This document shows positions 41,288-64,000 of a stretch of DNA of 64,000 bases, in pieces. The DNA comes from Sphingomonadaceae bacterium. GTDB taxonomy: Bacteria > Chloroflexota > UBA6077. A program made the position numbers and the translations under genes. The first letter of the stretch is position 1. Each line of letters opens with the position of its first letter. The DNA is taken from the NCBI GenBank assembly GCA_050261575.1, contig JBLNDL010000043.1, forward strand, positions 12,115 to 76,114, given 5' to 3'. The notes under the pieces are model-generated. The model did no database searches. It was not told the DNA's origin and saw nothing but the letters and a program-made list of their open reading frames with translations.

Positions 41288-41308
41288 GGGAATCGTTCTC
41301 TTCCTCTG

Positions 41309-42232: not shown

Positions 42233-42242
42233 CACTCGTTCC

Positions 42243-46302: not shown

Positions 46303-46353
46303 GGGTTACTCCTCCAATGGGGTTCTCGGTTCTGGGTGCTGGGGGCGCCGCTC

Positions 46354-47271
46354 CTATAGGTCGGGAATGCTGAGGTAGCGCTCCCCGGTGTCGGGCAGGA
46401 GGGTCACCACCCGCTTACCCGCCCCCAGCTCCTGCGCCACCGACAGCGCCGCGAAGACGTTGGCACCCCCGGAGATGCCTGCCAGCAGCCCCTCCTCGCG
46501 GCTCAGGCGCGAGGCCGTCCGGATGGCGTCCTCGTCCCGCACCGGCACTATCCTGTCCAGGATCTCGCGGTCGAGGATGGTCGGCACGAAGCTGGCGCCT
46601 ATCCCCTGGATGGCGTGGGGGCGCGCCCTCTCCCCCTTCAGCACCTGGGAGCGGGCGGGCTCCACGGCCACGACCAGGACCGAGGGGTTCGCCTCCTTGA
46701 GCAGCTCGCCGACCCCGGTGATGCTCCCGCCGGTGCCCACGCCCGCGACGAAGGCGTCCAGCCGGCCCCCGGCAGCCTCCAGGATCTCCAGCGCTGTGGT
46801 CCGCCGGTGCACCTCAGGGTTGGCGGGGTTGTTGAACTGGTCGGGCATGAAGTAGTCAGGGTTGCGCTCCAGCAGTTGCTGCGCGGCGAAGACGGCCCCG
46901 GACATCCCCTCGATGGCCGGGGTAAGGATCAACTCCGCCCCGAACCTGGCGAGCAGTCGCTGCCTCTCGACGCTCATGTCCTCGGGCATCGTGAGGATCA
47001 GCCTGTAGCCCTTCACGGCGGCGACCATCGCCAGGCCGATGCCGGTGTTGCCGCTGGTCGGCTCCACGATGGTGGCCCCCGGCAGGAGCCTCCCGGATCG
47101 CTCCGCCGCCTCCACCATGGCGAGCGCCACGCGGTCCTTGACGCTTCCCCCCGGGTTCCGCGCCTCCACCTTCACCAGCAGCTCGGCGGAGCCCGGTCCG
47201 GGGAGCCGCCTCAACCGCACGAGGGGGGTGTCTCCGATCAGATCCAGGACGCTATCGGCGATGCCGGCCAC
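46354..47271 (-). CDS. cysM: Cysteine synthase (CysK/CysM family PLP enzyme)
   Basis: PLP-Lys motif GGSVKDR, TSGNTGIGLA and GTGGS loops. Confidence 0.85.
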   Translation of the reverse strand: MAGIADSVLDLIGDTPLVRLRRLPGPGSAELLVKVEARNPGGSVKDRVALAMVEAAERSGRLLPGATIVEPTSGNTGIGLAMVAAVKGYRLILTMPEDMSVERQRLLARFGAELILTPAIEGMSGAVFAAQQLLERNPDYFMPDQFNNPANPEVHRRTTALEILEAAGGRLDAFVAGVGTGGSITGVGELLKEANPSVLVVAVEPARSQVLKGERARPHAIQGIGASFVPTILDREILDRIVPVRDEDAIRTASRLSREEGLLAGISGGANVFAALSVAQELGAGKRVVTLLPDTGERYLSIPDL

Positions 47272-47515: not shown

Positions 47516-47812
47516 GTGACGCTCGCCATCCTTCTCACAAGCGGCTTCGAATCCGCCGACAAACACACCGCGCTGAGGCTGGCCGAGGCTGCTCTCGCCC
47601 AGGGACATCACGTGAAGCTCTTCCTGATGGGCGACGGCGTCTACAGTGCGTCCATCTTCGGCAACCTCGCCCAAAAGGGGGCTTCCGTCGTGTGGTGCTC
47701 GCACAACGCCCAGCAGCGCGGGCTGCTGCCGGTACAAGGTGTCTCCGCGGGAAGCCAGTTCGAGTGGGCGGAAATGGTGGCCCAGGCGGACAGGGTGGTG
47801 AGCTTTGGATAA
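47516..47812 (+). CDS. DsrE/TusD-like sulfur-relay protein
   Basis: GTG start with GGAGGT; a roughly 98-aa DsrE/DsrF-fold protein with Cys in WCSHNAQQRG. Confidence 0.65.
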   Translation: MTLAILLTSGFESADKHTALRLAEAALAQGHHVKLFLMGDGVYSASIFGNLAQKGASVVWCSHNAQQRGLLPVQGVSAGSQFEWAEMVAQADRVVSFG

Positions 47813-48170
47813 GTTGAGGCAGGGCAAGAATGTCGTCGTGCTGATCCGGCGATCCCCCCTCGGCAGCCTCAAAGCTTCCGAGGGGCTGCGGATGGCCGTG
47901 GGGCAGAGCATGGCCCACCGGGTCACGGTGCTGCTGGTGGACACCGCGGTGTGGCTGGCCGGGCCACTGAAGCCGGAACTGGTGGAGGGGGGAGGGGTCG
48001 GCAAGCACCTGGGCATGCTGACACGTCTGAAGCAGCGGGTGTGGGTGGAGGCATCGTCGATGGAACGGTATGGACTGGAGCCGAGCCTTCTCCGGGAGGG
48101 CGTCTCGATCGTGAGCGGGCAAGAGATCGACGAGGCGCTGCTCGCAGCCGACGCCGTCGTTGTGTACTGA
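47805..48170 (+). CDS. DsrF/TusC-like sulfur-relay protein
   Basis: NVVVLIRRSPLGSLKASEGLRMAV parallels the TusC N-terminus (KIAFVFRSAPYGSASGREALDA); the start (TTG 47805 or 47814) is uncertain. Confidence 0.6.
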   Translation: MDKLRQGKNVVVLIRRSPLGSLKASEGLRMAVGQSMAHRVTVLLVDTAVWLAGPLKPELVEGGGVGKHLGMLTRLKQRVWVEASSMERYGLEPSLLREGVSIVSGQEIDEALLAADAVVVY

Positions 48171-48179
48171 GGTGACGAG

Positions 48180-48437
48180 ATGAGGGCGCTCCACATACTG
48201 CGGTCTATGGAGGACGAGCGCGCGTTGGCGACTGCGCTCTCGCACGCCGCCGATCACCCCACCAGCCTGCTGCTGCTCCAGGATGCGGTGCTGGCCAGGG
48301 TGGACGGTTTCCCGGGCCCCGTCTACGCCTCTGCCGAGGACGTCGCAGCCAGGGGAAAGGGCGGCACCTTTCGGGAGGTCGACTACGAGGCCATCGTGAA
48401 CCTCATCTTCGAGCACGATCGAGTGATCACTTGGTGA
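48180..48437 (+). CDS. DsrH/TusB-like sulfur-relay protein
   Basis: An 85-aa protein with RBS GAGGTG-N5-ATG; a small DsrH-fold pattern (LHILRS...LLLLQDAV). Confidence 0.6.
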   Translation: MRALHILRSMEDERALATALSHAADHPTSLLLLQDAVLARVDGFPGPVYASAEDVAARGKGGTFREVDYEAIVNLIFEHDRVITW

Positions 48438-48476
48438 CGGAGGGGCGATACCCGGCCACGTCCCTCCAGACCATCG

Positions 48477-48501
48477 AGTCGGGGTTGTCCCAACCCCGAC
48501 T
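48477..48501 (+). terminator. 11-bp stem-loop 40 nt after dsrH (terminator or attenuator candidate)
   Basis: agtcggggttg-tcc-caaccccgact; no U-tract. Confidence 0.3.
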
Positions 48502-48550
48502 GGTCGCGCAGTCGACCGCCGCCGTTGGGGCGCAACGCGAGCGAGCACGC

Positions 48551-48584
48551 GAGGCAAGCGAGCACAGCCTCACGGTTGCGGCCG
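48551..48584. repeat. Short dispersed intergenic repeat, copy 2 (gaggcaagcgagcacagcctcacggttgcggccg), with a partial tandem duplication (gcgagcgagcac) immediately upstream
   Basis: See copy 1 at 39923-39956. Confidence 0.35.
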
Positions 48585-48635
48585 ACTCCGCGATGACACA
48601 AACAGACCAACCCAGCAGCAGATGGGAGGTGGCAT

Positions 48636-49922
48636 TTGGCGACGACGACGTTGGCGGATTTCAGCTTACAAACCCCTGCTTTCACTGACCGTTTGCGGTC
48701 GGTGCGAGACAGGGTCTTCGTGGAGTACTGGCCCTACTGGGCAGCGGCAATGGTTCTCGCGGTGCTGAACATCTTCGAGTTCGGTTTCGGTGGCCGTGCC
48801 TGGGGGGTCACCACCGAGTTCACCCGGTGGGGTGGGCACCTGATGCAACTGCTGGGGGTGGACGTCGGCAACTGGCTCTACTTCAAGCAGATCGGACTAG
48901 AGGGTATGCCGTGGGACCGTGGATCCGGATGGATCAACATCGGCATGCTCCTCGGCGCGCTGATCGGGGCGCTTCTCAGCACCAACTTCAAGATCCGGAT
49001 GCCGAGGCGGCGGATCCGCCTGGTGCAGGGGTTCGTGGGGGGTGCCATCGCCGGATTCGGCGCCAGGCTCGCCATGGGATGCAACCTCGGCTCCTTCTTC
49101 AGCGCCATCCCGCAGTTCTCTTTCCACGGCTGGCTCTTCATGGCTGGTCTGTTCCTGGGCACCTACCTGGGGACCAAGATCGTCCTCCTGCCGGTCTTCC
49201 TGGGCAAGCCCGAGCGACATCGAGGTAGAGCGGGCGAGCCGACGCCCGACCCCACCGGGAGGAGCATCCAGCCGATCCTGGGCCTCGTTCTGCTGGGGCT
49301 GGTGGGATCGGGAGTCGCCTACTACGTGCTGTTCGGCAAATGGACGCTCGGGGTTTGGCTGCTGTTCGGGGTCGGGTTCGGCTTCGCCATCGAGCGGGGG
49401 CGGTTCTGCTTCACCTCGGCCTTCCGCGAGCTGTGGATCACCCGCCAGGCGGACCTGTCCAGGGCCCTCGCCCTGGGCATGATGGTCGCCACCATCGGCA
49501 TGGCTATCCTGATCTACGCAGGCAAGGTGCCCGAGGCGCAGTGGGCGAGCCCTGGCGCACTGCTGGGCGGGATAATCTTCGGTACAGGCATCGTCGTGGC
49601 CGGCGGGTGCGAGACCGGGTGGATGTACCGCTCCGCCGAGGGGTACGTGCAGCTCTGGATGGCTGGCCTCGGCACCATCGTGGGGGCCACGCTGCTGGCT
49701 TGGGCGTGGGGATCCGCAGGGCTGTACCACTACCTGGTCGAGGGCTGGCCCAAGATCGCCCTCTTCAAGTGGATCGGCTGGCCGGCCGCGATCCTGGCGA
49801 CCCTGGCCCTGTTGGCGGGCTGGTATCTCTTCGTGACCTGGTGGGAGTCGCGTGGATCCCTCTCCGTTCCCCGGGCTGCTGCCAGGGGCATCGCATCAGA
49901 CAAGGAGAAGGCAACGGCATGA
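48636..49922 (+). CDS. YeeE/YedE family thiosulfate (sulfur-compound) transporter
   Basis: Two homologous halves, each with a conserved Cys in a GxC motif (LAMGCNLGS / VAGGCETG). TTG start after GGGAGGTGG; the start is uncertain. Confidence 0.8.
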   Translation: MATTTLADFSLQTPAFTDRLRSVRDRVFVEYWPYWAAAMVLAVLNIFEFGFGGRAWGVTTEFTRWGGHLMQLLGVDVGNWLYFKQIGLEGMPWDRGSGWINIGMLLGALIGALLSTNFKIRMPRRRIRLVQGFVGGAIAGFGARLAMGCNLGSFFSAIPQFSFHGWLFMAGLFLGTYLGTKIVLLPVFLGKPERHRGRAGEPTPDPTGRSIQPILGLVLLGLVGSGVAYYVLFGKWTLGVWLLFGVGFGFAIERGRFCFTSAFRELWITRQADLSRALALGMMVATIGMAILIYAGKVPEAQWASPGALLGGIIFGTGIVVAGGCETGWMYRSAEGYVQLWMAGLGTIVGATLLAWAWGSAGLYHYLVEGWPKIALFKWIGWPAAILATLALLAGWYLFVTWWESRGSLSVPRAAARGIASDKEKATA

Positions 49923-50167
49923 GCGAGACCGAGAGGATCGTCGTCGATAGGGTCCTAGACCTGCGGGGGGAAACCTGCCCCTACCCGCCCATCTACACTG
50001 TACAGGAGTTGGCCGACATGAATCCTGGGGAGGTGCTGGAGGTAATAGTGGACCACCCGCCGTCGGTCACCAACGTCCCCAAGGAGGTGGCCCGGCATGG
50101 CCACGCGGTGCTTGGGGAGCCCGTACGGCAGGGCGCGGTGTACCGGATGCGCTTCCAGGTGCGGTAG
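49919..50167 (+). CDS. TusA-like protein (YeeD-type partner of YeeE)
   Basis: ATG overlaps the yeeE stop (ATGA); LDLRGETCPYPPIYTVQELADMNPGEVLEVIVDHP. The ORF track lists 49920, but counting in the printed sequence places the ATG at 49919-49921. Confidence 0.75.
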   Translation: MSETERIVVDRVLDLRGETCPYPPIYTVQELADMNPGEVLEVIVDHPPSVTNVPKEVARHGHAVLGEPVRQGAVYRMRFQVR

Positions 50168-52560: not shown

Positions 52561-53358
52561 TCAGGAGGTGCACGTGGACGGCCTTTCACGGATCGTTCGC
52601 ACCATCACCGCTATGCCCGCCAGGTTCGAGGCGACGCCAACCAGCATCAGAGGCTGCCGGTACTCGGAGAGCAGGAGGGCCGCGCCGGAGAGCCCCACGA
52701 AGGGCAGCACATCGGCCACGTGGTGGGCACAGCAGGCCAGCATCGCCACGCTGGAGGTGCCCGTGCTGGCCCCGGCCACGGCGGCGGCGGAGCCGGTGCC
52801 CTTCTTCTTGTGAAGGGCCCTCCGCATGTAGAAGAACAGGTCCAACTGAACGCCGAACCCCAGGGCAATCGCGAGGACGAAGTACCAGTCCTGCGACAGC
52901 AGCTCCGCCGCGTGCTCGAACCCCTGGGCGAGGGTGACAAGACCCAGGTACAGGGCCACCAGGAGCGCGGATCCGGCCGCCCCGTACATGGCGGGGCGCC
53001 CGAGGAAGTCCCGCAGGCCCAGCCCTGTCGGCGACCGCTCCTGCTGCTCCGCTGCCGGCGCACCCGGCGCTGGCTCGGGCTCGCCCGGGTGGTAACCAGC
53101 GGCTGCCACGGCGTCCTGCAGTAATCCAGCAGTGACCCGGGCTGGATCGATGCGGAGTACCGCCATCCCCGGGACCAACTCCACCCGGGCGTCAACGACG
53201 CCCGGAACGCTCTCGAGGGCTGCGCGGGTACGGCGGACGCGCGCCTGGCAGGTCAAGCCACGGACAGGCATCACCAACTCGACCGGTTCGTCGGAGCCGT
53301 TCGTTGGAGCCGTCGACGAGCCCTCGCGCGTTTCGGCGGCCATCACGACACCTCCCAC
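52561..53358 (-). CDS. Membrane protein with N-terminal degenerate HMA (heavy-metal-associated) domain and MerT-like Cys-Cys transmembrane region
   Basis: VELVMPVRGLTCQARVRRTRAALESVPGV... has the HMA fold pattern with only one Cys of the CxxC pair; C-terminal TM helices include SVAMLACCAHHVADVLPFVGLSGAALLL (resembling the MerT CC...GLSGA motif). Confidence 0.5.
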   Translation of the reverse strand: MGGVVMAAETREGSSTAPTNGSDEPVELVMPVRGLTCQARVRRTRAALESVPGVVDARVELVPGMAVLRIDPARVTAGLLQDAVAAAGYHPGEPEPAPGAPAAEQQERSPTGLGLRDFLGRPAMYGAAGSALLVALYLGLVTLAQGFEHAAELLSQDWYFVLAIALGFGVQLDLFFYMRRALHKKKGTGSAAAVAGASTGTSSVAMLACCAHHVADVLPFVGLSGAALLLSEYRQPLMLVGVASNLAGIAVMVRTIRERPSTCTS

Positions 53359-53867
53359 CTGAACACTCGCTCTTTCACCCCGGCCACGTCACGGATGACC
53401 AGCTCCAGCACCCGCACGCCAGAGGCCAGGATCGCCTTCCCAGAGGTGTCCTTCGCCGGGAAGCTCAGCGTCCCCGATCGATGGTGCCCTCCAGATGGTG
53501 CATCCCACCGTTCGGGCTTCAGTTCCTGCCCTCGATCGTTTCGCAGCACCGCCAGCTTGCCGAGATCGTACCCGTCCAGGTTGACCGAATGGGTGTCCAT
53601 GGCCACGGAGAATGCGAGCGGACGGTCGGTGTCCCCGGGGTTCTGCCAGGTCACCTTGATGGTCACACTCCCACCCTCGCTGGTGCGAGTAGTGCCCCTG
53701 GCAGCGGCGGCTCCGCTACTGCTCTGGGCCTGAGGCCGTGAGAGCTCCGCCGCCACGACGCTGGCGGAGGGAGCCTTTGCCTCCGTGGAACTGCATCCGA
53801 GCAGGACAACCGCGGACACACCCAGCGCCAGTCCAATGCCGATTAGTCTCCAACGTCGTCGTTGCAA
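53343..53867 (-). CDS. Lipoprotein of unknown function
   Basis: TTG start with GGGGAGG-N7; signal peptide plus lipobox (LALGVSAVVLLGCSS); a beta-rich mature domain with a HHRSG motif. The ORF-track N-terminal extension is rejected. Confidence 0.55.
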   Translation of the reverse strand: MQRRRWRLIGIGLALGVSAVVLLGCSSTEAKAPSASVVAAELSRPQAQSSSGAAAARGTTRTSEGGSVTIKVTWQNPGDTDRPLAFSVAMDTHSVNLDGYDLGKLAVLRNDRGQELKPERWDAPSGGHHRSGTLSFPAKDTSGKAILASGVRVLELVIRDVAGVKERVFRWEVS

Positions 53868-54018
53868 CCTGATACCTCCCCGGGGCGGCCCGCCGGACTC
53901 GATACGGGCGGCGGGCTGCACGTTGGTCTCGTCCTCCGCATAAGATACTCCCCGGGGATGAACGGACCCTGAAAGGGGGCTTAACGGGGGCTGAGAGATG
54001 GCGTCAGGCGGAGCTTCC

Positions 54019-54603
54019 TTAGGGTGTGTCGGAGGCAATAGGGGGTGTATCGGTGGGCTTCCCGCGGCCCTCGTACCTGGCATCGCTGGGGGCAGACAGT
54101 CGCAGCCAGGCCAGGCGGGAGTACAGGCCGGCCATCAGCCCCAGCGGACAGAGGTACCGACACCAGGCTCGCCCCCGCCAGAGCAGAGAGGAGACGAGGG
54201 CTCCGGAGGCTAATGCGAGGAGGAGGAGCGCCGTGAAGGGGCCGCTGCTCTCCAGGGAGAGAAGGAGAAACAGGAAGCCCATGATGGCCAGGCCGAGAGC
54301 GGCAATCCAGGGGCCGACCGCCCTCAGCCGCGCAGGGGGCAGCGGCAACGCGGGTCGCCGGAGCCGCTGCGCCAAGTCGCCCAGGGCGGAGAAGGGGCAC
54401 ACCGCGCACCAGAGGCGGGCGGTCAGCAGGATGAAGAAGGGGAGGAGCGTCCACCAGAGTTGCCATACCAGCGCCGCTCCGAGATTCATCTCGCTGCGCT
54501 GGGGCGGACGCAGGGCAAGAACGACCACTGCCGTAGCGGCCGCCAGCAGCGTCGCCTGCGGGATGAGCGGGAACCACGGCCAGCGGAGCAGCCTGCTAAC
54601 CAC
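54019..54603 (-). CDS. NapH/MauN/NosR-like four-TM membrane protein with two CXnCP motifs and no ferredoxin domain
   Basis: WCAVCPFSALGDL and WCRYLCPLGLMAGL follow TM2 and TM4 (compare NapH/NosR CGWLCPxG). GTG start at 54603 overlaps the upstream stop by 8 nt (GTGGTTAG); the 38-codon N-terminal extension has 84% GC3 and encodes TM1. The ORF-track ATG at 54684 is rejected (GC3 59%, and it overlaps the upstream gene). Confidence 0.6.
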   Translation of the reverse strand: MVSRLLRWPWFPLIPQATLLAAATAVVVLALRPPQRSEMNLGAALVWQLWWTLLPFFILLTARLWCAVCPFSALGDLAQRLRRPALPLPPARLRAVGPWIAALGLAIMGFLFLLLSLESSGPFTALLLLALASGALVSSLLWRGRAWCRYLCPLGLMAGLYSRLAWLRLSAPSDARYEGRGKPTDTPPIASDTP

Positions 54604-55015
54604 CGAAGAACGCACGGTAGTAGAGCTTCTGCACGGGTTTGACCGGGGAGTCCGTCTCCACCGTGATCTCGAACAGGTGAGCACCTCCCATCCCCTCGTG
54701 CATGCTGGGCGCCAGCATCAGGTAGCTGTTCTCGCCAGGTTGCAGTGTCGTAGCACCTACGACCGGGGTGGGCGGTCAACAACCTTCCACGGTCTTCACG
54801 CCGGGGGTGGCGACGATCTTAACGGGCCTATCTCCCACGTTGCGCATCTCGAATCGGGCTGGCGCCAGCCTGCCCAGGGGGACCCGCCCCAGGTCGACGC
54901 TCTCGGGGGAGAAGACCAACTCCCCCTCCCTGCTGCCCCCCAGACCCCCGGACAGCCCCAGGAGGGCCACAGCCGCCATTCCGAGAGCCAGCGCCACAAG
55001 GGTGGCTCGTCTCAT
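54596..55015 (-). CDS. DUF1573-like secreted protein with in-frame TGA (candidate selenocysteine, motif G-C-U) followed by a hairpin
   Basis: ATG 55015 (RBS GAGAGGTG-N5), signal peptide MRRATLVALALGMAAVALLGLSGG, then a DUF1573-like core (LVFSPESVDLGRVPLGRLAPARFEMRNVGDRPVKIVATPGVKTVEGC). A TGA at 54776-54778 sits exactly where DUF1573 proteins carry the conserved CGC(T) cysteine motif. The same frame continues for 59 more codons at 78% GC3 (PPTPVVGATTLQPGENSYLMLAPSMHEGMGGAHLFEITVETDSPVKPVQKLYYRAFFGG*) and resembles the DUF1573 C-terminus. A 7-bp hairpin (gucguag-GUG-cuacgac, + coordinates 54747-54763) starts 12 nt after the UGA with G/U in the apical loop, consistent with a bacterial SECIS. 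If the TGA were a stop, the annotated product would be only the 54779-55015 part. Confidence 0.5.
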
Positions 55016-55516: not shown

Positions 55517-56005
55517 ATGCGTGTGCTGCCGCTCGTCTTCGCCGCGGTGCTCGTGTGGGTCGTTGGGAGCGGGCTGTGGTACGCGGCGAACGGATCGAGC
55601 GGGCCTGTCCTTCAGTCCTTCGGCAGCTATCGGCTGACTCAGGCGACCACGGGCCAGGAGGCTGTGGCGCAGATGTCCAGGCTGCACGGCAAGGGAGTGG
55701 GCGTCACCGGCGGCTACGTGGGCCACTATGAGGGGCCTTCCGGGGGTGCCATGGCGTATGTCGGCGAGACCGCCGGTGAGGGGGACGCCAGGACGCTGCT
55801 CGCGCAAATGGAGCGGCTCATAGCGGCAGGAAACCCGTACTTCACCGACCTGAAGCCGCTCACCATCGATGGGGTCCGGGTGCTATCCGTGAGGAGTGGC
55901 CAGGAGGCTCACTACTTCTGGCAGGCGGGAAACAAGGTAGTTTGGATCGGGTTCGACCAGGAGGACCCCGCCGGGATATCTGCTGCGGTGCAGGCGTTCA
56001 GATAG
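55517..56005 (+). CDS. Hypothetical membrane-anchored protein (162 aa)
   Basis: ATG with GGGGGAG-N7; N-terminal signal-anchor (MRVLPLVFAAVLVWVVGSGLW); no family recognised. Confidence 0.5.
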   Translation: MRVLPLVFAAVLVWVVGSGLWYAANGSSGPVLQSFGSYRLTQATTGQEAVAQMSRLHGKGVGVTGGYVGHYEGPSGGAMAYVGETAGEGDARTLLAQMERLIAAGNPYFTDLKPLTIDGVRVLSVRSGQEAHYFWQAGNKVVWIGFDQEDPAGISAAVQAFR

Positions 56006-56021: not shown

Positions 56022-56498
56022 ATGTCGATGGATAGGGCCGCCGTCGCCGACCCGGGAACGGTACGAAGGGCGGCGTCGGATGCCCGCAGAAGGGGCAAAC
56101 GTATCCGGTTCGCCATCGCGGGTCTGATCCTAGTGGCTGCTCTCGGGTACATGATCTACTCGGGCATCGCCAGCAATTCCGAGTACTACCTCACGGTATC
56201 GGAGGTGTACACCCTGGGGGCCCAGGCCCAGGAGAGCCAGATCAAGATCGGGGGGACGGTGGTGGAAGGGAGCGTGGTCTGGGAGCGGGCAACGAACGCC
56301 GTCAGCTTCGACATCACGGACGAGAAGGGCAAGAGATTGCCGGTCATCTACGCGGGGGTGGTGCCCGACTCCTTCCAGCCGGGGGCCGAGGTGATCCTGG
56401 AGGGTAAGCTACAACAGGACGGCAGATTCGCCGCCACCACGCTTCTGGCCAAGTGCGCCTCCAAGTACGAGCCGCAGATCCCAGGGATGGGCGGGTAG
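56022..56498 (+). CDS. ccmE: Cytochrome c-type biogenesis protein CcmE, Cys-variant (CXXXY instead of HXXXY)
   Basis: Membrane anchor plus OB-fold (VSFDITDEKGKRLPVIYAGVVPDSFQPGAEVILEGK) and a C-terminal LLAKCASKYEP where canonical CcmE has LAKHDENYTP. Confidence 0.8.
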   Translation: MSMDRAAVADPGTVRRAASDARRRGKRIRFAIAGLILVAALGYMIYSGIASNSEYYLTVSEVYTLGAQAQESQIKIGGTVVEGSVVWERATNAVSFDITDEKGKRLPVIYAGVVPDSFQPGAEVILEGKLQQDGRFAATTLLAKCASKYEPQIPGMGG

Positions 56499-59782: not shown

Positions 59783-61024
59783 CTAGGACCGGACCGGTGC
59801 ACCCCTGGAGCCCGCCTGCTGCCGCAGGATGTGCACCAACCTCTCCTTCTTCTCGGCACGCAACCTCTCGTAGTCGCCCCGGCCGATCTGGCCGGCCTCG
59901 TACCAGTCGTCGAGGTTGGCAATGGCGGCCAGCAGATCCCGCTTCTCCAGCTCCAGCAGAGCAGGGTTGATCGGCGCTGCGCGCCGAGAGCGCTTGGAGG
60001 TCGCCGGGTGGGAGAGGCTGTAGGCTGGGACCGGTGCCGGCTCCGCCGCGCGCTTTCGGAGCAGGAGGAAGGCGGCAGCCAGCGCGGCCAGGACGCCCAC
60101 GGCCACCCCTATCAGGGCAAGGGGGCCACCGGGGATCCCGCCCTGGGGCAGTCCCTGAAGGTTGACGTTCAGGGTGGTGTCTACCGGCAGCTTGTCGCCG
60201 CTGAACAGTTGGTAGGTGGTGCCCTGGATGTTCTGGGTTCCGTGGTTGGCCAGGCCGGAGATCTCCGCCCGCACCCCGTTGGGCACCAGCACCTGCACCT
60301 TCTCCACATTCTGCTGCAGAGTCGTGGCGAAGGAGAGGGTCGTGCCGTCGTAGGGGATCTTGTAGGAATAGATCTTCTGGGTCTCGCCGGGATAGAGAGG
60401 CATGGTGTCTACGAAGCCCGCCCCGTCCTTGACTATGCAGCAGCTCATCAGGGTATCGCCGTACTCCAGGTTCCTGGCGCCCGCGGGCGGCAGGTAGCGG
60501 CTCGTCTCACGCTGGTCCGTTCCCACCTCGCGAGAGCCGATGTAGGTCTTGTCGGAGTCGTTGCGCATCACCAGGATCTCGCTGACCTCCAACTCGCCCT
60601 TGCCCACGTTCAGCAGGTAGTGCTTGGCGATGGTCTTGACCACGTCGGCCTGAGCGGTGGAATCGTAGACCTTGAGGGTCACCTCCTTGACCTCGCCGTT
60701 GCCGGAGAAGGAGACCCTGGGCGCAGAGTAGTCAGCCTTCTGATAGTTGGTGGTGGCCTCGTAGGAGTAGTTGGAACTGGTATCCAGCCCCGTGAACTCG
60801 AAGTTGCCCTGGGCGTCGGTCTTGGCGGTTACCTTGTTGCGCTCCGTCTGGCCGAAGTAGGCGGTAAGGGTAACGTCGATCCCCTCCACGCTGCCACCAC
60901 CAGCGGTTGCGTTCAGCAGCTTGCCCTTGATGGTGCCGCCCTCCGCTGCATAGGCGGGCGAGGCGAGGAGGGCAACGGCCAGGACCGCCGCACCCAGGAG
61001 CCGGACGGTATTGGAACTAAGCAT
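59783..61024 (-). CDS. Secreted, C-terminally membrane-anchored protein with carboxypeptidase-regulatory-like beta-sandwich domain(s)
   Basis: Signal peptide (AVLAVALLASPAYAAEG); a CarbopepD_reg-like segment (TIKGKLLNATAGGGSVEGIDVTLTAYFGQTE...TDAQGNFEFTGL); a C-terminal TM (LALIGVAVGVLAALAAAFLLL) and a charged tail. Confidence 0.6.
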   Translation of the reverse strand: MLSSNTVRLLGAAVLAVALLASPAYAAEGGTIKGKLLNATAGGGSVEGIDVTLTAYFGQTERNKVTAKTDAQGNFEFTGLDTSSNYSYEATTNYQKADYSAPRVSFSGNGEVKEVTLKVYDSTAQADVVKTIAKHYLLNVGKGELEVSEILVMRNDSDKTYIGSREVGTDQRETSRYLPPAGARNLEYGDTLMSCCIVKDGAGFVDTMPLYPGETQKIYSYKIPYDGTTLSFATTLQQNVEKVQVLVPNGVRAEISGLANHGTQNIQGTTYQLFSGDKLPVDTTLNVNLQGLPQGGIPGGPLALIGVAVGVLAALAAAFLLLRKRAAEPAPVPAYSLSHPATSKRSRRAAPINPALLELEKRDLLAAIANLDDWYEAGQIGRGDYERLRAEKKERLVHILRQQAGSRGAPVRS

Positions 61025-61802
61025 TGGCGCCTCCTACTGCTGTCTCTTCCGAGGTCGTCCGCCCACGGTCGGCGAGAGGCTTCCCGCAGGCGGAACAGAA
61101 GCGATCTCCCGCTTCCGCCGGCTCTCCGCAGACCGAGCACCTCGTCTGCAGGGAGGCGCCGCAGCTGGAGCAGAAGGCTGCCGCGGGGTTCCTCAAGGGC
61201 GAGCTGCAGGAGGGGCAGGCAGTGCCGATGGGGGATGAGGGGGCTGCCGCCTTCTGCCCCGGAGCGCCGGGACCGCCGTTGGGGACAACACCGGCTCTGC
61301 GGTGTTGGCGGAGGCTCGCCACCTCTCGCTCGATCAGATCCTCTTCGCGGCTGGTGGCCCTCCCCGACTTGCGGGGCGCATTGCGACGCAGGGATGCCAC
61401 CTCCTGCTCGATGACGTCCTCCAGCCTTCCGCTTCGGGGCCTGCCTATCTGCACACCGGCCACCGCCGGGGGCAGGGTGTCCAGGAGGCCACTCCTGCCT
61501 TCCGGCTCCACGACCCCGTCGATGATCTTCAGCAGGGCTATCGCCTTGTCCTCGTACCGGCTCGCCAGCTCCTGGTAGTCCCGCTTGGAGAGGTTCCCCA
61601 TGGCGTGGTCGAACTCCAGCTCCTTCATCGCCGTGTAGGTGGCCTCCTTCTGGAGCAGCAACTCCTCCAGGACGGACTCCTCCGACCCTTCCGATCCGTG
61701 CACCTCTTGTGACGGCCGGCCGGTCAGCAGGGGCCAGGCAACGAAGGTGGCCACCCCCACCGCCGACACCAGCATCACCGCCAAGGTCATCTCCGCTGTC
61801 AC
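61017..61802 (-). CDS. Membrane protein with coiled-coil segment, tandem 22-aa repeat and C-terminal double zinc-ribbon
   Basis: N-terminal TM; a repeat (EDVIEQEVASLRRNAPRKSGRA / EDLIEREVASLRQHRRAGVVP); CPSC...CSSCG...CSVCG...CSACG. Confidence 0.55.
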   Translation of the reverse strand: MTAEMTLAVMLVSAVGVATFVAWPLLTGRPSQEVHGSEGSEESVLEELLLQKEATYTAMKELEFDHAMGNLSKRDYQELASRYEDKAIALLKIIDGVVEPEGRSGLLDTLPPAVAGVQIGRPRSGRLEDVIEQEVASLRRNAPRKSGRATSREEDLIEREVASLRQHRRAGVVPNGGPGAPGQKAAAPSSPIGTACPSCSSPLRNPAAAFCSSCGASLQTRCSVCGEPAEAGDRFCSACGKPLADRGRTTSEETAVGGANA

Positions 61803-61818
61803 GGCTATCGACCTCCTT

Positions 61819-62367
61819 TCACTCGAAACGCTCCAGCTCTGCCGCCAGTCGAGAGCGGTAGCTGTCGATGTCGGCCGAGCCCGGCCGGCTCGCGGCGGCT
61901 CTCACGTAGGCGTCGTAGATCTTCCGCTGCCGAACCCAGGTGGCCACCAGGAACGCGATCAGCACGCCCCCCGCCAGGATCGCCGCGAAGGGGGTGACCC
62001 AGGCCGTCAGGTTGAAGCCCTGCTTGGTGGGGGCGGCGAGGATCCGCTCCCCGTACTGGGATACCAGGGTGTCGATGATCTTCTGCTTGGACCAGCCCGC
62101 GGCCACCTTCTCCTTGACGAAGCCCCGCATGGCCACCGACTCGGGCATCTGGCAGACGGCCAGGGTCTCAACGCAGTCGGACGGGCACATCAACTCGTTG
62201 ATCAGATCGGAGGCGTCGTCAGCCAGGGCCGGCGCCCAGGTGGCCAGCAGCAGAAGGAGAGATAACAGCATCGGGATGATGCAGGCTCGGCCCTGAAGGG
62301 CCGGGTTAACCCGGCCGTCGTCAACCTGGCCCTTCAGGGCCGGAGTCTCGAGCCTCATTTCGCTCAC
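61819..62367 (-). CDS. ccmH: Cytochrome c-type biogenesis protein CcmH/CycL-like
   Basis: Signal sequence then ...LMCPSDCVETLAVCQMPES...KQKIIDTLVSQYGERILAAP (the CcmH family pattern around the Cys motif), and a C-terminal TM. The true start may be the internal ATG at 62271. Confidence 0.65.
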   Translation of the reverse strand: MSEMRLETPALKGQVDDGRVNPALQGRACIIPMLLSLLLLLATWAPALADDASDLINELMCPSDCVETLAVCQMPESVAMRGFVKEKVAAGWSKQKIIDTLVSQYGERILAAPTKQGFNLTAWVTPFAAILAGGVLIAFLVATWVRQRKIYDAYVRAAASRPGSADIDSYRSRLAAELERFE

Positions 62368-64000
62368 CTACCCTTCTGCCCCTGCCAGTGCGGCCGCTCG
62401 CTGTGCGGCCTGGCGGGCCTCAGCCCTTCGCCTCTCCCTGGCGTCGGGCCAGTAGGCGATTGCCGTTCCCAGCAGCACCACCCAGCCCCCGATCCAGATC
62501 CACATCACGAGCGGATTGACGACGAACTTGAAGGAGGCCCTTTCCTGCTCCCAGGAGGCGAGGATCAGGTAGAGGTCCTCCAGGGGGGTGCTGCGGATGG
62601 CCACCTCGGTGTTGGGGTTGCTGTGGCTCTTGTGGAACTCCTTGGAGGGGGACATCCTCCCCAGCAGCCGGTCACCGGAGTAGACGGCTACCGTGGCGGC
62701 CACCACCTCCTTGCTCTGAGTGGGGAAGCTGTTCAGCCCCTCGTAGACCAGGCGGTAGCCGCCAATAGTGGCATCCTGGCCCTTGTCCAGCGTCACCTCC
62801 AACTCCTGCTTGTATGCCTGGGAGCCGGCCACGCCGATCGCCATCAGGATGATGCCAAGGTGGATGACGTAGCCGCCGTAGCGAGGCTTGTTGCCCCAGA
62901 TGAGGTTCAGCAGGCAGGCCAGGTAGTTGCGGTTGGTGAGCCTCCGCTTGGCGCGGGCTCCACGATAGAACTCCAGCAGCAGAGTAGCCAGGACGAATGC
63001 GCATGCCGCGAAGGCCACGACGGCGTAGACCACCCGGATCCCCAGGACGAAGTAGAGGACGGGGACGCTCGCCAGGGCCACGGAGAGCGGGTAGGCGAAG
63101 TTGCGGATCAGGTTCTCGGCGGAGGCGCGTCGCCAGCCGATTAGGGGGCAGATCCCCATCAGGATCACGAGAGCCAGCAGGATCGGCCCCTCGACCTGAT
63201 TGAAGAAGGGGGCGTTTACGGTGACCTTGACTCCCCGCACGGCTTCCGAGATGAGCGGGAAAACGGTGCCCCAGAAGACGGCGAAAGCGGCGCCCACCAG
63301 CAGCAGGTTGTTCAGCAGGAAGCTGGACTCCCGAGAAAGCATGGAGTCCAGCTCGTCCTCGCTCTTGAGGTCGGGGAGACGTGCCCACAGCAGCCCCAGA
63401 GAGCCCACCAACAGGACGACCAGCATGACGATGAAGGCCGGCCCTACGCCGGAGTCCCCGAAGGTGTGGACCGATGCGAGCACCCCGCTCCGGGTGAGGA
63501 AGGTGCCGAAGATGGTCAGGGCGAAGGTGGTGATGATGAGGGCGATGTTCCACACCTTCAGCATGCCCCGACGCTGCTGGATCATGACGGAATGCAGGTA
63601 GGCGGTGCCGGTGAGCCACGGCATGAATGAGGCGCTCTCCACCGGATCCCACCCCCAGTAGCCGCCCCAGCCCAGCTCGACGTAGGCCCATTGGGCGCCG
63701 AAGAGGTTGCCCAACGTGAGGAAGAACCAGGCGAAGAGGGTCCAACGCCTGGTGCTCCTGATCCACTCGTCACCCAGCCGGCCCGTGACGAGCGCAGCCA
63801 GGGCGAAGGCGAAGGGCACAGTGAAACCCACGTAGCCGATGTAGAGCGTGGTGGGGTGGAAGAACATGCCCATGTTCTGGAGCAGTGGATTCAGCCCCTG
63901 ACCGTCGGCAGGCACGAAAGCCATCCGTTTGAAGGGATCGGAGAAGAAGGTGAGCAGCCCCAGGAAGAAGGCCATGCAGAAGCTCATGAAGGCCGTGACC
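62368..64000 (-). CDS. ccmF: Cytochrome c-type biogenesis protein CcmF (partial; N-terminal part lies beyond the window end)
   Basis: WWD domain (ELGWGGYWGWDPVESASFMPWL), many TM helices and a C-terminal periplasmic domain; the ORF is open to position 64000. Confidence 0.85.
   Translation of the reverse strand, partial: VTAFMSFCMAFFLGLLTFFSDPFKRMAFVPADGQGLNPLLQNMGMFFHPTTLYIGYVGFTVPFAFALAALVTGRLGDEWIRSTRRWTLFAWFFLTLGNLFGAQWAYVELGWGGYWGWDPVESASFMPWLTGTAYLHSVMIQQRRGMLKVWNIALIITTFALTIFGTFLTRSGVLASVHTFGDSGVGPAFIVMLVVLLVGSLGLLWARLPDLKSEDELDSMLSRESSFLLNNLLLVGAAFAVFWGTVFPLISEAVRGVKVTVNAPFFNQVEGPILLALVILMGICPLIGWRRASAENLIRNFAYPLSVALASVPVLYFVLGIRVVYAVVAFAACAFVLATLLLEFYRGARAKRRLTNRNYLACLLNLIWGNKPRYGGYVIHLGIILMAIGVAGSQAYKQELEVTLDKGQDATIGGYRLVYEGLNSFPTQSKEVVAATVAVYSGDRLLGRMSPSKEFHKSHSNPNTEVAIRSTPLEDLYLILASWEQERASFKFVVNPLVMWIWIGGWVVLLGTAIAYWPDARERRRAEARQAAQRAAALAGAEG

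What the first reader, a model, noticed from the sequence alone, without database searches (positions are those of the whole stretch)
54019..55015. Candidate selenoprotein: a DUF1573 gene reads through an in-frame UGA at its conserved Cys motif, has a SECIS-like hairpin, and is translationally coupled to a NapH-like CXnCP membrane protein
The ORF that begins at 55015 encodes a signal peptide and a DUF1573-type fold, then hits TGA (54776-54778) directly after ...VKTVEGC. That is the position where DUF1573 proteins carry their conserved Cys-Gly-Cys motif. The same frame continues for 59 further codons with 78% GC3, against about 59% for the competing frame. Those codons encode a DUF1573-like C-terminal half (LQPGENSYLMLAP...LFEITVETDSPVKP). 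Twelve nucleotides past the UGA lies a perfect 7-bp hairpin (GUCGUAG-GUG-CUACGAC) with G/U in the apical loop, the geometry expected of a bacterial SECIS. The read-through stop overlaps by 8 nt the GTG start of a four-TM protein carrying two NapH/NosR-type CX2-3CP motifs. Together these suggest an exported Cys-Sec redox protein paired with a membrane thiol/metal relay. It sits beside an HMA-MerT-like protein, a lipoprotein and ccmE. I am not aware of DUF1573 being a described selenoprotein family.
Basis: partly seen in the sequence, partly recalled or inferred. Interest (0 to 1): 0.85.

Follow-up and report, generated by a model that had tools for sequence, protein, structure and literature searches.

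The report
Unannotated Cys-Sec selenoprotein with SECIS
The in-frame UGA is almost certainly a selenocysteine codon in an exported Ig-fold (DUF1573-like) protein with a vicinal Cys-Sec motif; this subfamily is common in Chloroflexota, Rokubacteria and NC10, databases cut it into two fragments, and it probably handles copper.

Summary
The minus-strand gene 55015-54596 has TGA at 54778-54776 after ...VEGC, 59 further in-frame codons, a 7-bp hairpin 12 nt downstream, and an 8-nt overlap with a NapH-like gene.

Evidence that the UGA encodes selenocysteine:
- Full-length homologues carry Cys there (VVEGC-C-PP).
- 68 of 84 family copies examined have TGA at that codon.
- All TGA forms, and no Cys forms, have the hairpin. 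Five of its 7 pairs show compensatory changes, some between synonymous sites.
- The downstream frame is under purifying selection.
- TGA is an ordinary stop for 10 of 20 neighbouring genes.
- A YedE/FdhT-YedF selenium-metabolism pair lies 5 kb away. A relative has a Sec-containing selD on the same contig.

The novelty claim is overstated. DUF1573 selenoproteins (OS_HP2, motif UxC) have been catalogued since 2007. This is a distinct subfamily: the motif is G-C-U-P-P, scores fall far below the OS_HP2 model cutoff, and a 2026 catalogue of 119 families does not list it.

Conserved neighbours suggest copper handling: PCYCGC/OS_HP4 proteins, NapH/CcoG-like Fe-S membrane proteins (some fused to cupredoxin), CopA and CcmE. 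This function is inferred. In this window the NapH-like gene is a deletion remnant.

The parts
54596..55015 (-). Complete selenoprotein gene: 139 codons including Sec80. It encodes a signal peptide plus one Ig-like (PapD/ASH, DUF1573-type) domain. Public gene calls split it into a 79-aa and a 40-aa ORF.
   Evidence: Read-through extends the Pfam Ig-domain match to residues 33-123. dN/dS downstream of the UGA is 0.12-0.47, against 0.17-0.29 upstream.
54776..54778 (-). In-frame UGA read as selenocysteine (residue 80), in the motif E-G-C-U-P-P.
   Evidence: Cys occupies this column in every full-length homologue examined (nearly invariant, >=90%, across 93 sequences). TGA occupies it in 68 of 84 family copies.
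54747..54763 (-). bSECIS apical hairpin: 7-bp stem GUCGUAG/CUACGAC and loop GUG. It begins 12 nt after the UGA, so 19 nt separate the UGA from the loop.
   Evidence: It is present in all 63 distinct Sec-form sequences and absent from all 16 Cys forms. 92.5% of cells are paired and 5 of 7 pairs have compensatory changes. G23 is invariant and U24 is conserved in at least 90%. The structural constraints of the published bSECIS model (loop, stem, spacing; PMC13188914) are met; its energy criterion is met only with flanks (17 nt alone -7.2, 48 nt -13.7 kcal/mol).
54935..55015 (-). N-terminal signal peptide or membrane anchor, implying an extracytoplasmic location.
   Evidence: Read directly from the sequence. 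Homologues have signal anchors or lipoboxes such as LAGC or VAGC.
54662..54703 (-). Conserved M-H-E-G-M-G-G-x-H loop (M105, H106, M109, H113). It is a candidate partner of C79/U80 in a soft-metal site.
   Evidence: These columns are invariant or nearly invariant in alignments of 10 and 93 sequences. Their position relative to the CC loop is inferred from the strand order of the AF2 model.
54019..54603 (-). NapH/CcoG-like Fer4_5 membrane protein gene whose GTG start overlaps the selenoprotein stop by 8 nt. Here it is a truncated chimera: residues 1-~170 are fused to the tail of a lost PCYCGC gene.
   Evidence: Pfam Fer4_5 E 8.6e-13; NapH 37 bits against a cutoff of 213. The protein tails are compared. 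blastn shows that 1,153 bp of L001 are missing between window 54097 and 54076.
53343..53921 (-). Lipoprotein of unknown function (lipobox LLGC), a neighbour conserved in about 18 loci.
52561..53358 (-). Membrane protein with a weak N-terminal HMA domain (GLTCQARV) and an ACCAHH motif in a transmembrane segment.
   Evidence: HMA E 6.4e-5, below the cutoff. Homologues lie near the family gene in 12 loci.
55517..56005 (+). Divergently transcribed 162-aa membrane-anchored protein with no known domain. A homologous domain is fused to the C-terminus of the selenoprotein in locus L092.
   Evidence: no Pfam or NCBIfam hit.
56022..56498 (+). CcmE haem chaperone homologue, a variant with LAKCASKY.
   Evidence: Pfam CcmE E 2.7e-31. 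It lies near the family gene in 15 loci.
48636..50167 (+). YedE/FdhT selenium-metabolism membrane protein followed by a YedF-like (TusA-fold) protein. These are markers of selenium use in this genome.
   Evidence: NF033796 scores 421 bits (cutoff 350) and NF008242 scores 76.9 bits (cutoff 79).

Best explanation
The gene at 55015-54596 (minus strand) encodes one exported 139-residue selenoprotein, not two small ORFs.

How the UGA is read. SelB with Sec-tRNA(Sec) reads the UGA at 54778-54776 as selenocysteine. It is directed there by a bSECIS hairpin that starts 12 nt downstream, inside the coding sequence. This is inferred from comparative evidence, which is strong.

What the protein is. It is a single Ig-like beta-sandwich of the DUF1573 / PapD-ASH type. 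It carries a vicinal Cys79-Sec80 pair (E-G-C-U-P-P) at the end of one strand. A conserved M-H-x-x-M-G-x-H loop is predicted to lie at the same pole of the fold.

What it most likely does (inferred, about 45%). The Cys/Sec/Met/His cluster most likely forms an extracytoplasmic soft-metal site, probably for Cu(I). It would act as a copper chaperone, buffer or reduction partner together with two proteins:
- an exported PCYCGC (OS_HP4) cysteine-rich protein;
- a NapH/CcoG-like Fe-S membrane protein that carries electrons from the cytoplasm or quinol pool.

In this window the partner module is degraded by a 1.15-kb deletion, while the selenoprotein gene is intact. The confidence given below refers to the selenoprotein/SECIS claim.
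For: Sec decoding:
- Cys occupies the UGA column in every full-length homologue examined (VVEGCCPP; nearly invariant, >=90%, in the 93-sequence alignments).
- The TGA and the downstream frame are conserved in orthologues L001, L005 and L008.
- 68 of 84 family copies examined are TGA forms (80 copies in 79 loci from GTDB species representatives plus the window, L001, L005 and L008). They come from Chloroflexota, Methylomirabilota, Rokubacteria and a few Deltaproteobacteria.
- dN/dS downstream of the UGA is 0.12-0.47, similar to upstream.

SECIS:
- The hairpin is present in all 63 distinct Sec forms and absent from all 16 Cys forms.
- There are 24 doubly-changed paired cells against 3.0 in shuffles (0 of 500 shuffles reach this), and 5 of 7 pairs show compensatory changes.
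- Pair 21-27 joins two synonymous third positions: CG 51, AU 10, GC 2, none unpaired.
- The residue pairs encoded in the stem covary strictly: V/T 59, I/M 5 and V/A 4, with no V/M or I/T.
- The loop, stem and spacing fit the published bSECIS constraints. The bare 17-nt hairpin folds at -7.2 kcal/mol, marginally short of the model's -7.5 criterion; the 48 nt from the UGA fold at -13.7.

Genetic code and machinery:
- TGA terminates 10 of 20 neighbouring genes, so there is no genome-wide reassignment.
- YedE/FdhT and a YedF-like gene lie 5 kb away.
- L039 carries selD with its own Sec codon 7 kb from the family gene.
- Adjacent PCYCGC genes carry Sec in L026, L031, L068 and L075.
- tRNA-Sec has been reported in Chloroflexi (PMC5389517).

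Fold:
- The AF2 model of Cys homologue P0059 has pLDDT 95.
- Foldseek matches PapD/ASH/HYDIN Ig domains.

Copper link:
- PCYCGC is adjacent in about 45 of 84 copies, and Fer4_5 lies within 10 kb in 32 of 83 loci.
- The Fer4_5 protein is fused to a cupredoxin in Rokubacteria.
- CopA lies within 10 kb in 18 of 83 loci.
- Met-rich, SHOCT, DUF2933 and HMA neighbours are also present.
- CcoG, a protein that combines Fe-S clusters with a periplasmic Ig-like domain of unknown function, is a cupric reductase (PMC7558416).
Against: - No selA, selB, selD or tRNA-Sec lies within the 64-kb window. The rest of this genome could not be searched.
- There is no direct evidence of selenium in the protein.
- The isolated 17-nt hairpin folds at only -7.2 kcal/mol, and the local region is not more stable than shuffles.
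- One related lineage (L006/L007) has a +1 frameshift just after the TGA.
- Copper genes are frequent but not universal neighbours. CcmE, CcmF and CcdA-like genes also co-occur. The flanking two-component systems match heavy-metal models only below the cutoff.
- In this window the NapH-like partner is truncated and PCYCGC is lost.
Confidence: 0.88

Rival explanations
1. The vicinal Cys-Sec pair is a redox centre, not a metal ligand. It would cycle through an eight-membered selenenylsulfide ring like the GCUG end of mammalian thioredoxin reductase. Its job would be to reduce or isomerise extracytoplasmic thiols, for example in the PCYCGC protein or in apocytochromes c during Ccm-dependent maturation. 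Electrons would come through the NapH-like protein or CcdA.
For: - G-C-U resembles the TrxR motif (my own knowledge).
- Most selenoproteins are redox enzymes (PMC13188914).
- CcmE, CcmF and CcdA-like genes lie near many copies.
- Grx-like genes are neighbours in 7 loci.
- PCYCGC partners are Cys-rich and sometimes contain Sec.
Against: - The invariant Met/His loop (M105, H106, M109, H113) is not explained by pure thiol chemistry.
- Cupredoxin fusions, CopA and Met-rich neighbours point to copper.
- The fold is not thioredoxin-like.
- The two readings are not exclusive: a cupric reductase would need both properties.
Confidence: 0.3
2. The site binds mercury or another thiophilic metal or metalloid (Hg, Ag, Au, As), and the locus is a detoxification module analogous to MerP/MerT.
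For: - Vicinal Cys pairs are Hg ligands in MerT, MerC and MerF (my own knowledge).
- Several bacterial CU-motif selenoproteins are linked to Hg or organometal handling (SaoL, SaoC, HgcA).
- The neighbouring HMA-type membrane protein has an ACCAHH motif and gives weak MerP / MerTP / mercuric-reductase hits.
Against: - No merA, merR or merB was seen in the neighbourhoods annotated or read here; mer genes were not searched for specifically.
- The neighbours are cupredoxin, CopA-type ATPases, DUF2933 and Met-rich proteins.
- The HMA match is below the cutoff and has a single Cys.
Confidence: 0.1
3. The UGA is recoded with an amino acid other than Sec. One possibility is Cys delivered by an unusual SelB-like factor with an (8/4) tRNA-Cys system, which would use the same hairpin.
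For: Such tRNAs, and possible 'recoding with Cys', have been proposed in some bacteria (PMC5389517). The hairpin shows recoding but does not by itself identify the residue.
Against: - YedE/FdhT and YedF are next to the gene.
- A Sec-type selD lies on the same contig in L039.
- Sec/Cys alternation within a family is the classic selenoprotein signature.
- If Cys were inserted, a plain UGY codon would do, as it does in the 16 Cys forms.
Confidence: 0.04
4. The TGA is a true stop, or the gene is a pseudogene or assembly error. In that case the 79-aa and 40-aa ORFs are separate or non-functional, as public annotation has them.
For: Gene callers annotate it this way. One lineage (L006/L007) is frameshifted after the TGA.
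Against: - A stop here would cut an Ig domain in half.
- The TGA is conserved in 68 copies, whereas the real stop codon varies (TAG, TAA, TGA).
- The downstream frame is under purifying selection.
- The hairpin covaries and occurs only in TGA forms.
- Independent assemblies encode the same 79-aa product, one with identical DNA.
Confidence: 0.02

Closest known systems
OS_HP2 / DUF1573 domain-containing selenoprotein (pfam07610; NCBIfam NF041425; Zhang & Gladyshev 2007-2008)
   Same: - It is a homologous Ig-like domain. Family members align to NF041425 over its whole length (profile positions 3-97 of 98) at E down to 2.7e-9.
- Cys forms of this family carry precomputed PF07610 hits and one is named 'DUF1573 domain-containing protein'.
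- In both families the Sec lies in the Cys motif after the same strand.
   Different: - The motif is U-x-C (UGC, replacing the first Cys of CGC) in OS_HP2. Here it is C-U-P-P, replacing the second of two adjacent Cys.
- Scores are 13.6-37 bits against a cutoff of 100.
- This family has an extra conserved MHEGMGGxH loop.
- Sec forms were the majority among the 84 copies examined, whereas GOS counted 2 Sec forms against 354 Cys forms for OS_HP2.
CcoG (FixG/RdxA) cupric reductase and NapH/NosR-type Fer4_5 membrane Fe-S proteins
   Same: - The neighbouring gene has four predicted TM helices, two CX2-3CP motifs after TM2 and TM4, and (in the full-length L001 and L030 versions) further Cys clusters.
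- CcoG combines such a membrane Fe-S module with a periplasmic Ig-like domain of unknown function, and it reduces Cu(II) (PMC7558416).
   Different: - Here the Ig-like domain is a separate, exported selenoprotein.
- Matches to the NapH and CcoG models are far below the cutoffs (37-41 bits vs 213; 9-15 bits vs 317).
- No biochemical data exist.
- The window copy is truncated.
CYCXC / PCYCGC family (seleno)protein (OS_HP4; PF13798; NF041379)
   Same: It is the most frequent neighbour, adjacent in about 45 of 84 copies. It is exported, Cys-rich and of unknown function. It has its own Sec forms (UxxC) in L026, L068 and L075, and a UxxxC form in L031.
   Different: The fold is unrelated. The gene has been lost from this window by deletion.
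C-terminal Gly-Cys-Sec-Gly redox centre of mammalian thioredoxin reductase; bacterial CU-motif selenoproteins (SaoC, SaoL, HgcA, MbdU, KCU-star)
   Same: All have an adjacent Cys-Sec pair. The bacterial examples are linked to metal or metalloid binding.
   Different: There is no sequence or fold relationship. Here the pair lies inside an Ig domain and is followed by Pro-Pro. The resemblance to TrxR is from my own knowledge and was not tested.

Membership tests
Bacterial selenoprotein gene (Sec-UGA + bSECIS) | An in-frame UGA inside a conserved domain, with Cys at the same column in homologues | tested here: met
   VVEGC-C-PP in full-length homologues (that Cys column is >=90% conserved in the 93-sequence alignment); the Ig-domain match spans the UGA.
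Bacterial selenoprotein gene (Sec-UGA + bSECIS) | UGA and the downstream reading frame conserved in orthologues under purifying selection | tested here: met
   68 TGA forms; downstream dN/dS 0.12-0.47.
Bacterial selenoprotein gene (Sec-UGA + bSECIS) | bSECIS: 3-9 nt apical loop with G in its first two positions, 4-16 bp stem, 16-37 nt from the UGA to the loop, MFE <= -7.5 kcal/mol (PMC13188914) | tested here: met
   The loop is GUG, the stem is 7 bp and the spacing is 19 nt. The 48 nt from the UGA fold at -13.7 kcal/mol and the bare 17-nt hairpin at -7.2. Covariation is strong.
Bacterial selenoprotein gene (Sec-UGA + bSECIS) | selA, selB, selC and selD present in the same genome | not testable with these tools
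   None lies in the 64-kb window. Indirect support: YedE/FdhT and YedF in the window, Sec-selD on the L039 contig, and Sec-PCYCGC next to the gene in four loci.
Bacterial selenoprotein gene (Sec-UGA + bSECIS) | Selenium demonstrated in the protein | not testable with these tools
   This needs 75Se labelling or mass spectrometry.
DUF1573 (Pfam PF07610) | HMM score at or above the gathering threshold (26.1 bits) | tested here: not met
   The window protein scores 18.2 bits, E 0.0025. Many Cys-form relatives do carry precomputed PF07610 hits, so the subfamily sits at the edge of the model.
DUF1573 (Pfam PF07610) | Conserved C-G-C motif | tested here: not met
The motif is C-C-P-P or C-U-P-P throughout.
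DUF1573 (Pfam PF07610) | Ig-like beta-sandwich fold | tested here: met
   The AF2 model of homologue P0059 has pLDDT 95. Foldseek matches HYDIN, PapD, ASH and VesB domains.
OS_HP2 family (seleno)protein (NF041425) | HMM score >= 100 bits | tested here: not met
   13.6 bits for the window protein and 17-37 bits for 11 relatives; one relative gave no hit at E <= 0.1.
OS_HP2 family (seleno)protein (NF041425) | Sec in a U-x-C motif | tested here: not met
   Here the motif is C-U-P-P. The U-x-C motif is taken from PMC2398784 and PMC13188914.
NapH/MauN or CcoG family (the neighbouring gene) | Fer4_5 domain with CX3CP motifs, C-terminal 2x[4Fe-4S] ferredoxin, and a model score above the cutoff | tested here: inconclusive
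   The Fer4_5 domain is met (48.5 bits vs 22) and two CX2-3CP motifs are present. The NapH model gives 37-41 bits vs 213 and CcoG 9-15 vs 317. The C-terminal half is deleted in the window.

The most novel reading that the evidence does not exclude
This may be a large selenoprotein family that annotation has overlooked. It occurs in mostly aerobic soil and groundwater phyla (Chloroflexota, Rokubacteria, NC10). A vicinal Cys-Sec pair on an exported Ig-fold protein would serve as a selenolate ligand, or redox partner, for Cu(I). It would work with a PCYCGC (seleno)protein and a NapH/CcoG-like Fe-S membrane protein as an extracytoplasmic copper reduction and chaperone system. If so, copper homeostasis in these organisms would depend on selenium. 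Because the stop codon of the Sec gene overlaps the start of the next gene, expression of the membrane partner could also depend on selenium supply.
Probability: 0.3. Interest if true: 0.75.

Novelty: new variant of a known kind. Interest (0 to 1): 0.58.

Why it matters
- **Annotation.** Current pipelines cut these genes into two meaningless small ORFs. NCBI labels the window copy a 79-aa hypothetical protein, and no NCBIfam model reaches its cutoff. Dozens of species in Chloroflexota, Rokubacteria and Methylomirabilota therefore have an uncounted selenoprotein. A dedicated model would fix this.
- **SECIS.** The family gives an unusually clean natural data set for a bSECIS: 63 distinct sequences, covariation at synonymous sites, matched Cys forms that lack the hairpin, and an invariant G23 with a near-invariant U24.
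- **Biology.** A vicinal Cys-Sec pair in an exported Ig-fold protein, embedded in copper and cytochrome-maturation neighbourhoods, is a testable lead to a role for selenium in extracytoplasmic copper handling. It may also bear on the unexplained Ig-like domain of the cupric reductase CcoG.
- **Limit on surprise.** Selenoproteins in DUF1573 were already known, so the finding extends an existing picture and does not overturn it.

Tried and rejected
- **Rfam.** Scans of the whole window at gathering thresholds, and of 54600-54900 at E <= 10, gave nothing relevant. No Rfam model matched; bSECIS elements are reported to be highly diverse (PMC13188914), so this says little.
- **Local folding energy.** It was not informative: z = -0.59.
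- **Sec machinery in the window.** ARAGORN found no tRNA, and tblastn with E. coli SelA, SelB and SelD found nothing in the window. Among 1.2 Mb of related loci only L039 had selD.
- **Other selenoprotein genes in the window.** A GC3-based scan for further TGA read-through candidates gave 22 hits. The few inspected lay on the antisense strand of a real gene or at a junction between two genes; the rest were not examined individually, and the criterion is not discriminating at 66% GC.
- **Structure prediction of the window protein.** A Cys homologue was modelled instead.
- **Solved structures.** A sequence search of the PDB and a Foldseek search returned only generic PapD/ASH/HYDIN Ig domains, with no functional analogue.
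- **Profile search of 1.84 billion representative proteins.** It was swamped by giant multi-Ig proteins and did not give the size of the subfamily.
- **Flanking two-component systems.** They match heavy-metal models only below the cutoff.
- **Rejected readings.** A genome-wide TGA reassignment is excluded because TGA ends 10 of 20 local genes. A sequencing error is excluded by independent assemblies.
Full report
**1. The observation**

On the minus strand an ORF starts at ATG 55015, preceded by GAGAGG. It encodes a signal peptide (MRRATLVALALGMAAVALLGLSGG...) and stops at TGA 54778-54776 after ...VKTVEGC. The same frame runs on for 59 codons (PPTPVVGATTLQPGENSYLMLAPSMHEGMGGAHLFEITVETDSPVKPVQKLYYRAFFGG) to TAG 54598-54596.

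Twelve nucleotides after the UGA lies GUCGUAG-GUG-CUACGAC. The TAG overlaps by 8 nt the GTG start (54603) of a protein with CAVCP and CRYLCP motifs, which matches Pfam Fer4_5 at E 8.6e-13.

The local folding energy is unremarkable on its own (z = -0.59).

**2. Is the UGA decoded?**

*Domain continuity.* With U replaced by C, the read-through protein matches the HYDIN/VesB Ig-like domain over residues 33-123. The 79-residue piece matches only over residues 33-69.

*Cys homologues.* A search of 5.8 billion proteins found full-length 140-170-aa homologues that read VVEGC-C-PP...MHEGMGGxHLF at this point. It also found 78-84-aa 'proteins' that all end in ...EGC.

*Orthologue DNA.* The DNA behind those truncated entries (L001, L005, L008; 57-77% identity) keeps the TGA and the downstream frame. 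The true stop codon varies among them: TAG, TAA and TGA.

*Purifying selection.* Nei-Gojobori dN/dS is 0.12-0.47 downstream of the UGA and 0.17-0.29 upstream.

*Not an error.* Four further assemblies encode the identical 79-aa piece, and one of them, L009, is DNA-identical across the gene. This excludes an assembly error.

*No reassignment.* TGA terminates 10 of 20 neighbouring genes. This excludes a reassigned code.

**3. The family**

A scan of one genome per GTDB species with the family alignment confirmed 109 hits by tblastn, of which 79 loci were kept.

Together with the window, L001, L005 and L008, 68 of 84 copies have TGA in G-C-TGA-P-P and 16 have Cys.
- Sec forms occur in Anaerolineae, Thermomicrobiales, Chloroflexia, Ktedonobacter, Methylomirabilota/NC10, Rokubacteria and a few Deltaproteobacteria.
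- Cys forms cluster in Anaerolineae-type MAGs.

The count is biased by how loci were ranked. At least 64 of the 109 confirmed stretches are Sec forms, if all 29 stretches that were not kept are assumed to be Cys forms.

**4. The SECIS**

Every Sec form has a hairpin at the same register, 12 nt after the UGA. It is either GUCGUCG-GUU-CGACGAC or GUCGUC-GGUCA-GACGAC. No Cys form has it.

On 63 distinct sequences (alignment A2; pair counts):
- 92.5% of cells are paired, against 14-71% when the partner is slid by 1-3 columns.
- Five of the 7 pairs show compensatory changes.
- There are 24 doubly-changed cells against 3.0 ± 1.5 in shuffles; 0 of 500 shuffles reach the observed value.

Pair 21-27 joins the third positions of two codons, both synonymous sites. 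It reads CG in 51 sequences, AU in 10 and GC in 2, and is never unpaired.

Pair 19-29 forces the encoded residues to covary. The combinations seen are V...T (59), I...M (5) and V...A (4); V...M and I...T never occur.

The peptide V-V-G-x-T-T after U-P-P-x-x is conserved only in Sec forms. That is what is expected when an RNA structure constrains a coding sequence.

G23 is invariant and U24 is at least 90% conserved, counting from the U of UGA.

The geometry fits the structural constraints of the published bSECIS model: a 3-nt loop that starts with GU, a 7-bp stem, and 19 nt from the UGA to the loop (PMC13188914). The model's energy criterion (MFE <= -7.5 kcal/mol) is met only with flanks: -13.7 kcal/mol over the 48 nt from the UGA, and -7.2 for the bare 17-nt hairpin.

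**5. Sec machinery**

The window has no tRNA gene and no selA, selB or selD. I could not search the rest of this genome.

Indirect support:
- Window 48636-49922 is a YedE/FdhT 'selenium metabolism membrane protein' (NF033796, 421 bits against a cutoff of 350). It is followed by a YedF-like protein (76.9 bits against 79).
- Locus L039 (Methylomirabilota) carries selD 7 kb from its copy of the gene. That selD has its own in-frame TGA at SHGAG-U-ACK.
- In L026, L068 and L075 the adjacent PCYCGC gene carries TGA in a U-x-x-C motif, and in L031 in a U-x-x-x-C motif. This is the known OS_HP4/CYCXC (seleno)protein family.
- tRNA-Sec species have been reported in Chloroflexi (PMC5389517).

I put the probability that this is a genuine selenoprotein gene at about 0.9.

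**6. What is already known**

OS_HP2 is a pfam07610 (DUF1573) selenoprotein family with motif UxC/UGC. It was found in Olavius symbionts and in GOS data (PMC1976440, PMC2398784). Reviews from 2022 and 2026 list it. DUF1573 is therefore not new as a selenoprotein family.

The present family is related to OS_HP2 but distinct:
- Eleven of the twelve relatives scanned align to NF041425, most over nearly its whole length, but at 17-37 bits; one gave no hit. The window protein scores 13.6 bits. The cutoff is 100.
- The Sec replaces the second of two adjacent Cys (C-U-P-P), not the first Cys of C-G-C.
- An extra invariant M-H-x-x-M-G-x-H loop is present.
- The 2026 catalogue of 119 families and subfamilies has no such entry.
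- NCBI annotates the window copy as a 79-aa hypothetical protein.

By that review's own rule, the same domain with a different Sec position or motif counts as a distinct subfamily. On that basis this is a new subfamily.

**7. Structure**

An AlphaFold2 model of the Cys homologue P0059 (built from 93 sequences) has pLDDT 95. It is a seven-strand Ig-like sandwich.

Foldseek finds PapD/ASH/HYDIN/VesB domains and a Porphyromonas protein of unknown function (2qsv). No functional analogue appears.

The CC pair directly follows the long strand 66-77. The MxxxM-G-xH loop follows strand 96-103. If the strands alternate in direction, both loops lie at the same pole of the fold.

**8. Genomic context and function**

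Neighbours and their frequencies:
- The commonest neighbour is a PCYCGC protein, adjacent on the same strand in about 45 of 84 copies.
- A NapH/CcoG-like Fer4_5 membrane protein lies within 10 kb in 32 of 83 loci and is often immediately downstream.
- In Rokubacteria that Fer4_5 protein has an N-terminal cupredoxin domain.
- CopA-type ATPases lie within 10 kb in 18 of 83 loci.
- Met-rich proteins, SHOCT, DUF2933, Grx-like, HMA, CcmE, CcmF and CcdA-like genes also recur.
- In L092 the selenoprotein is fused to a domain homologous to the 162-aa protein encoded divergently at window 55517-56005.

By the positive-inside rule the Fer4_5 protein has four TM helices with both CXnCP motifs facing the cytoplasm, as reported for NapH (my own knowledge). 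It is therefore more likely an electron conduit than a thiol relay.

CcoG belongs to the same superfamily. It combines Fe-S clusters with a periplasmic Ig-like domain of unknown function and is a specific cupric reductase (PMC7558416).

My preferred model, at about 45%, is an extracytoplasmic Cu(I)-binding or copper-reduction module in which Cys79, Sec80, Met and His form the metal site. The main rival, at about 30%, is a selenenylsulfide redox centre that serves thiol reduction or cytochrome c maturation. The two could coexist in a cupric reductase. Hg or another metal is less likely, at about 10%.

**9. Peculiarities of this window**

blastn against the close relative L001 shows that 1,153 bp are missing between window 54097 and 54076.
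- The deletion removed the C-terminal 247 residues of the 416-aa Fer4_5 protein and most of the PCYCGC gene.
- It left a 194-aa in-frame chimera that ends with the PCYCGC tail YEGRGKPTDTPP.
- The same structure appears in independent assemblies L009-L011.
- The selenoprotein gene itself is intact.

In the other direction, L001 lacks the HMA-membrane gene that the window has.

**10. Verdict**

The candidate is real. It is one of the better-supported computational selenoprotein calls one can make without wet-lab data. It is a new Cys-Sec subfamily of an already known selenoprotein superfamily, not a new kind of system. Its function is unknown, but it is testably linked to copper.

Noticed in passing
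window 54019-54603 (-), junction at 54076-54097: The NapH-like Fer4_5 gene is a deletion chimera. Relative to L001, 1,153 bp are missing. This fuses Fer4_5 residues 1-~170 in frame to the last ~24 residues of a PCYCGC gene, which is otherwise lost. Assemblies L009-L011 have the same 198-aa gene.
   Followed up: yes
L026:7621, L031:4552, L068:9085, L075:9017 (+): The PCYCGC (OS_HP4/CYCXC) genes next to the family gene carry their own in-frame TGA in the second Cys motif (G-U-x-I-C). Two selenoprotein genes therefore sit side by side, in one case on a complete Anaerolineales chromosome (CP070811.1).
   Followed up: partly
L039:9375-9935 (+): A selD gene 7 kb from the family gene in a Methylomirabilota MAG has an in-frame TGA at SHGAG-U-ACK, making it a Sec-containing SelD. 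The gene is cut by the end of the contig.
   Followed up: partly
window 47516-50167 (+): A cluster of DsrE/F/H-like genes, YedE/FdhT (a selenium-metabolism membrane protein, above the NCBIfam cutoff) and a YedF-like TusA-fold protein. A MoaD-MoeZ fusion and a cysteine synthase lie just upstream (45208-47271, minus strand). This looks like a sulfur/selenium trafficking module.
   Followed up: partly
window 56022-56498 (+): The CcmE homologue reads LLAKCASKYEP where, from memory, E. coli CcmE has the haem-binding His (LAKHDENY). This would make it a Cys-type CcmE variant. CcmF-like and possible CcmH-like genes (assigned from N-terminal sequence only) lie at 59783-63987 (minus strand).
   Followed up: no
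L030:6966-8780 (+), also L041, L085 and others: In Rokubacteria the Fer4_5/NapH-like membrane protein has an N-terminal cupredoxin (CuA/COX2-like) domain. This 604-aa fusion lies 1.4-3 kb upstream of the selenoprotein gene.
   Followed up: partly
L092:9848-10777 (+) and window 55517-56005 (+): In a Desulfobacterales MAG the selenoprotein carries a C-terminal extension homologous to the 162-aa protein of unknown function encoded divergently next to the window gene. This is a fusion-type hint of a functional link. Neither sequence gives a Pfam hit, and the window protein gives no NCBIfam hit.
   Followed up: partly
L006:10001-10442 and L007:1307-1750: This orthologue has a run of seven C directly after the TGA, one base too many, which shifts the conserved downstream frame by +1. 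The locus also lacks the Fer4_5 and PCYCGC genes. It may be a pseudogene, a homopolymer error shared by two assemblies, or something else.
   Followed up: no
window 52561-53358 (-): A membrane protein with a weak HMA-like N-terminus whose metal motif is degenerate (GLTCQARV, one Cys) and with an ACCAHH motif in a predicted TM helix. No family model covers the membrane part. L001 retains only a 75-bp remnant of this gene.
   Followed up: partly
window 40949-42256 (-): A SHOCT-domain membrane protein with a Met/Gly-rich N-terminus, followed by a 315-aa lipoprotein-like protein very rich in Met. This composition is typical of copper-binding proteins.
   Followed up: no
whole window / P0001: NCBI labels the source MAG 'Sphingomonadaceae bacterium'. 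However, the nearest relatives of this locus (83-87% nt identity, L001-L004) and the whole family distribution point to Chloroflexota. The MAG is probably mislabelled or misbinned.
   Followed up: partly
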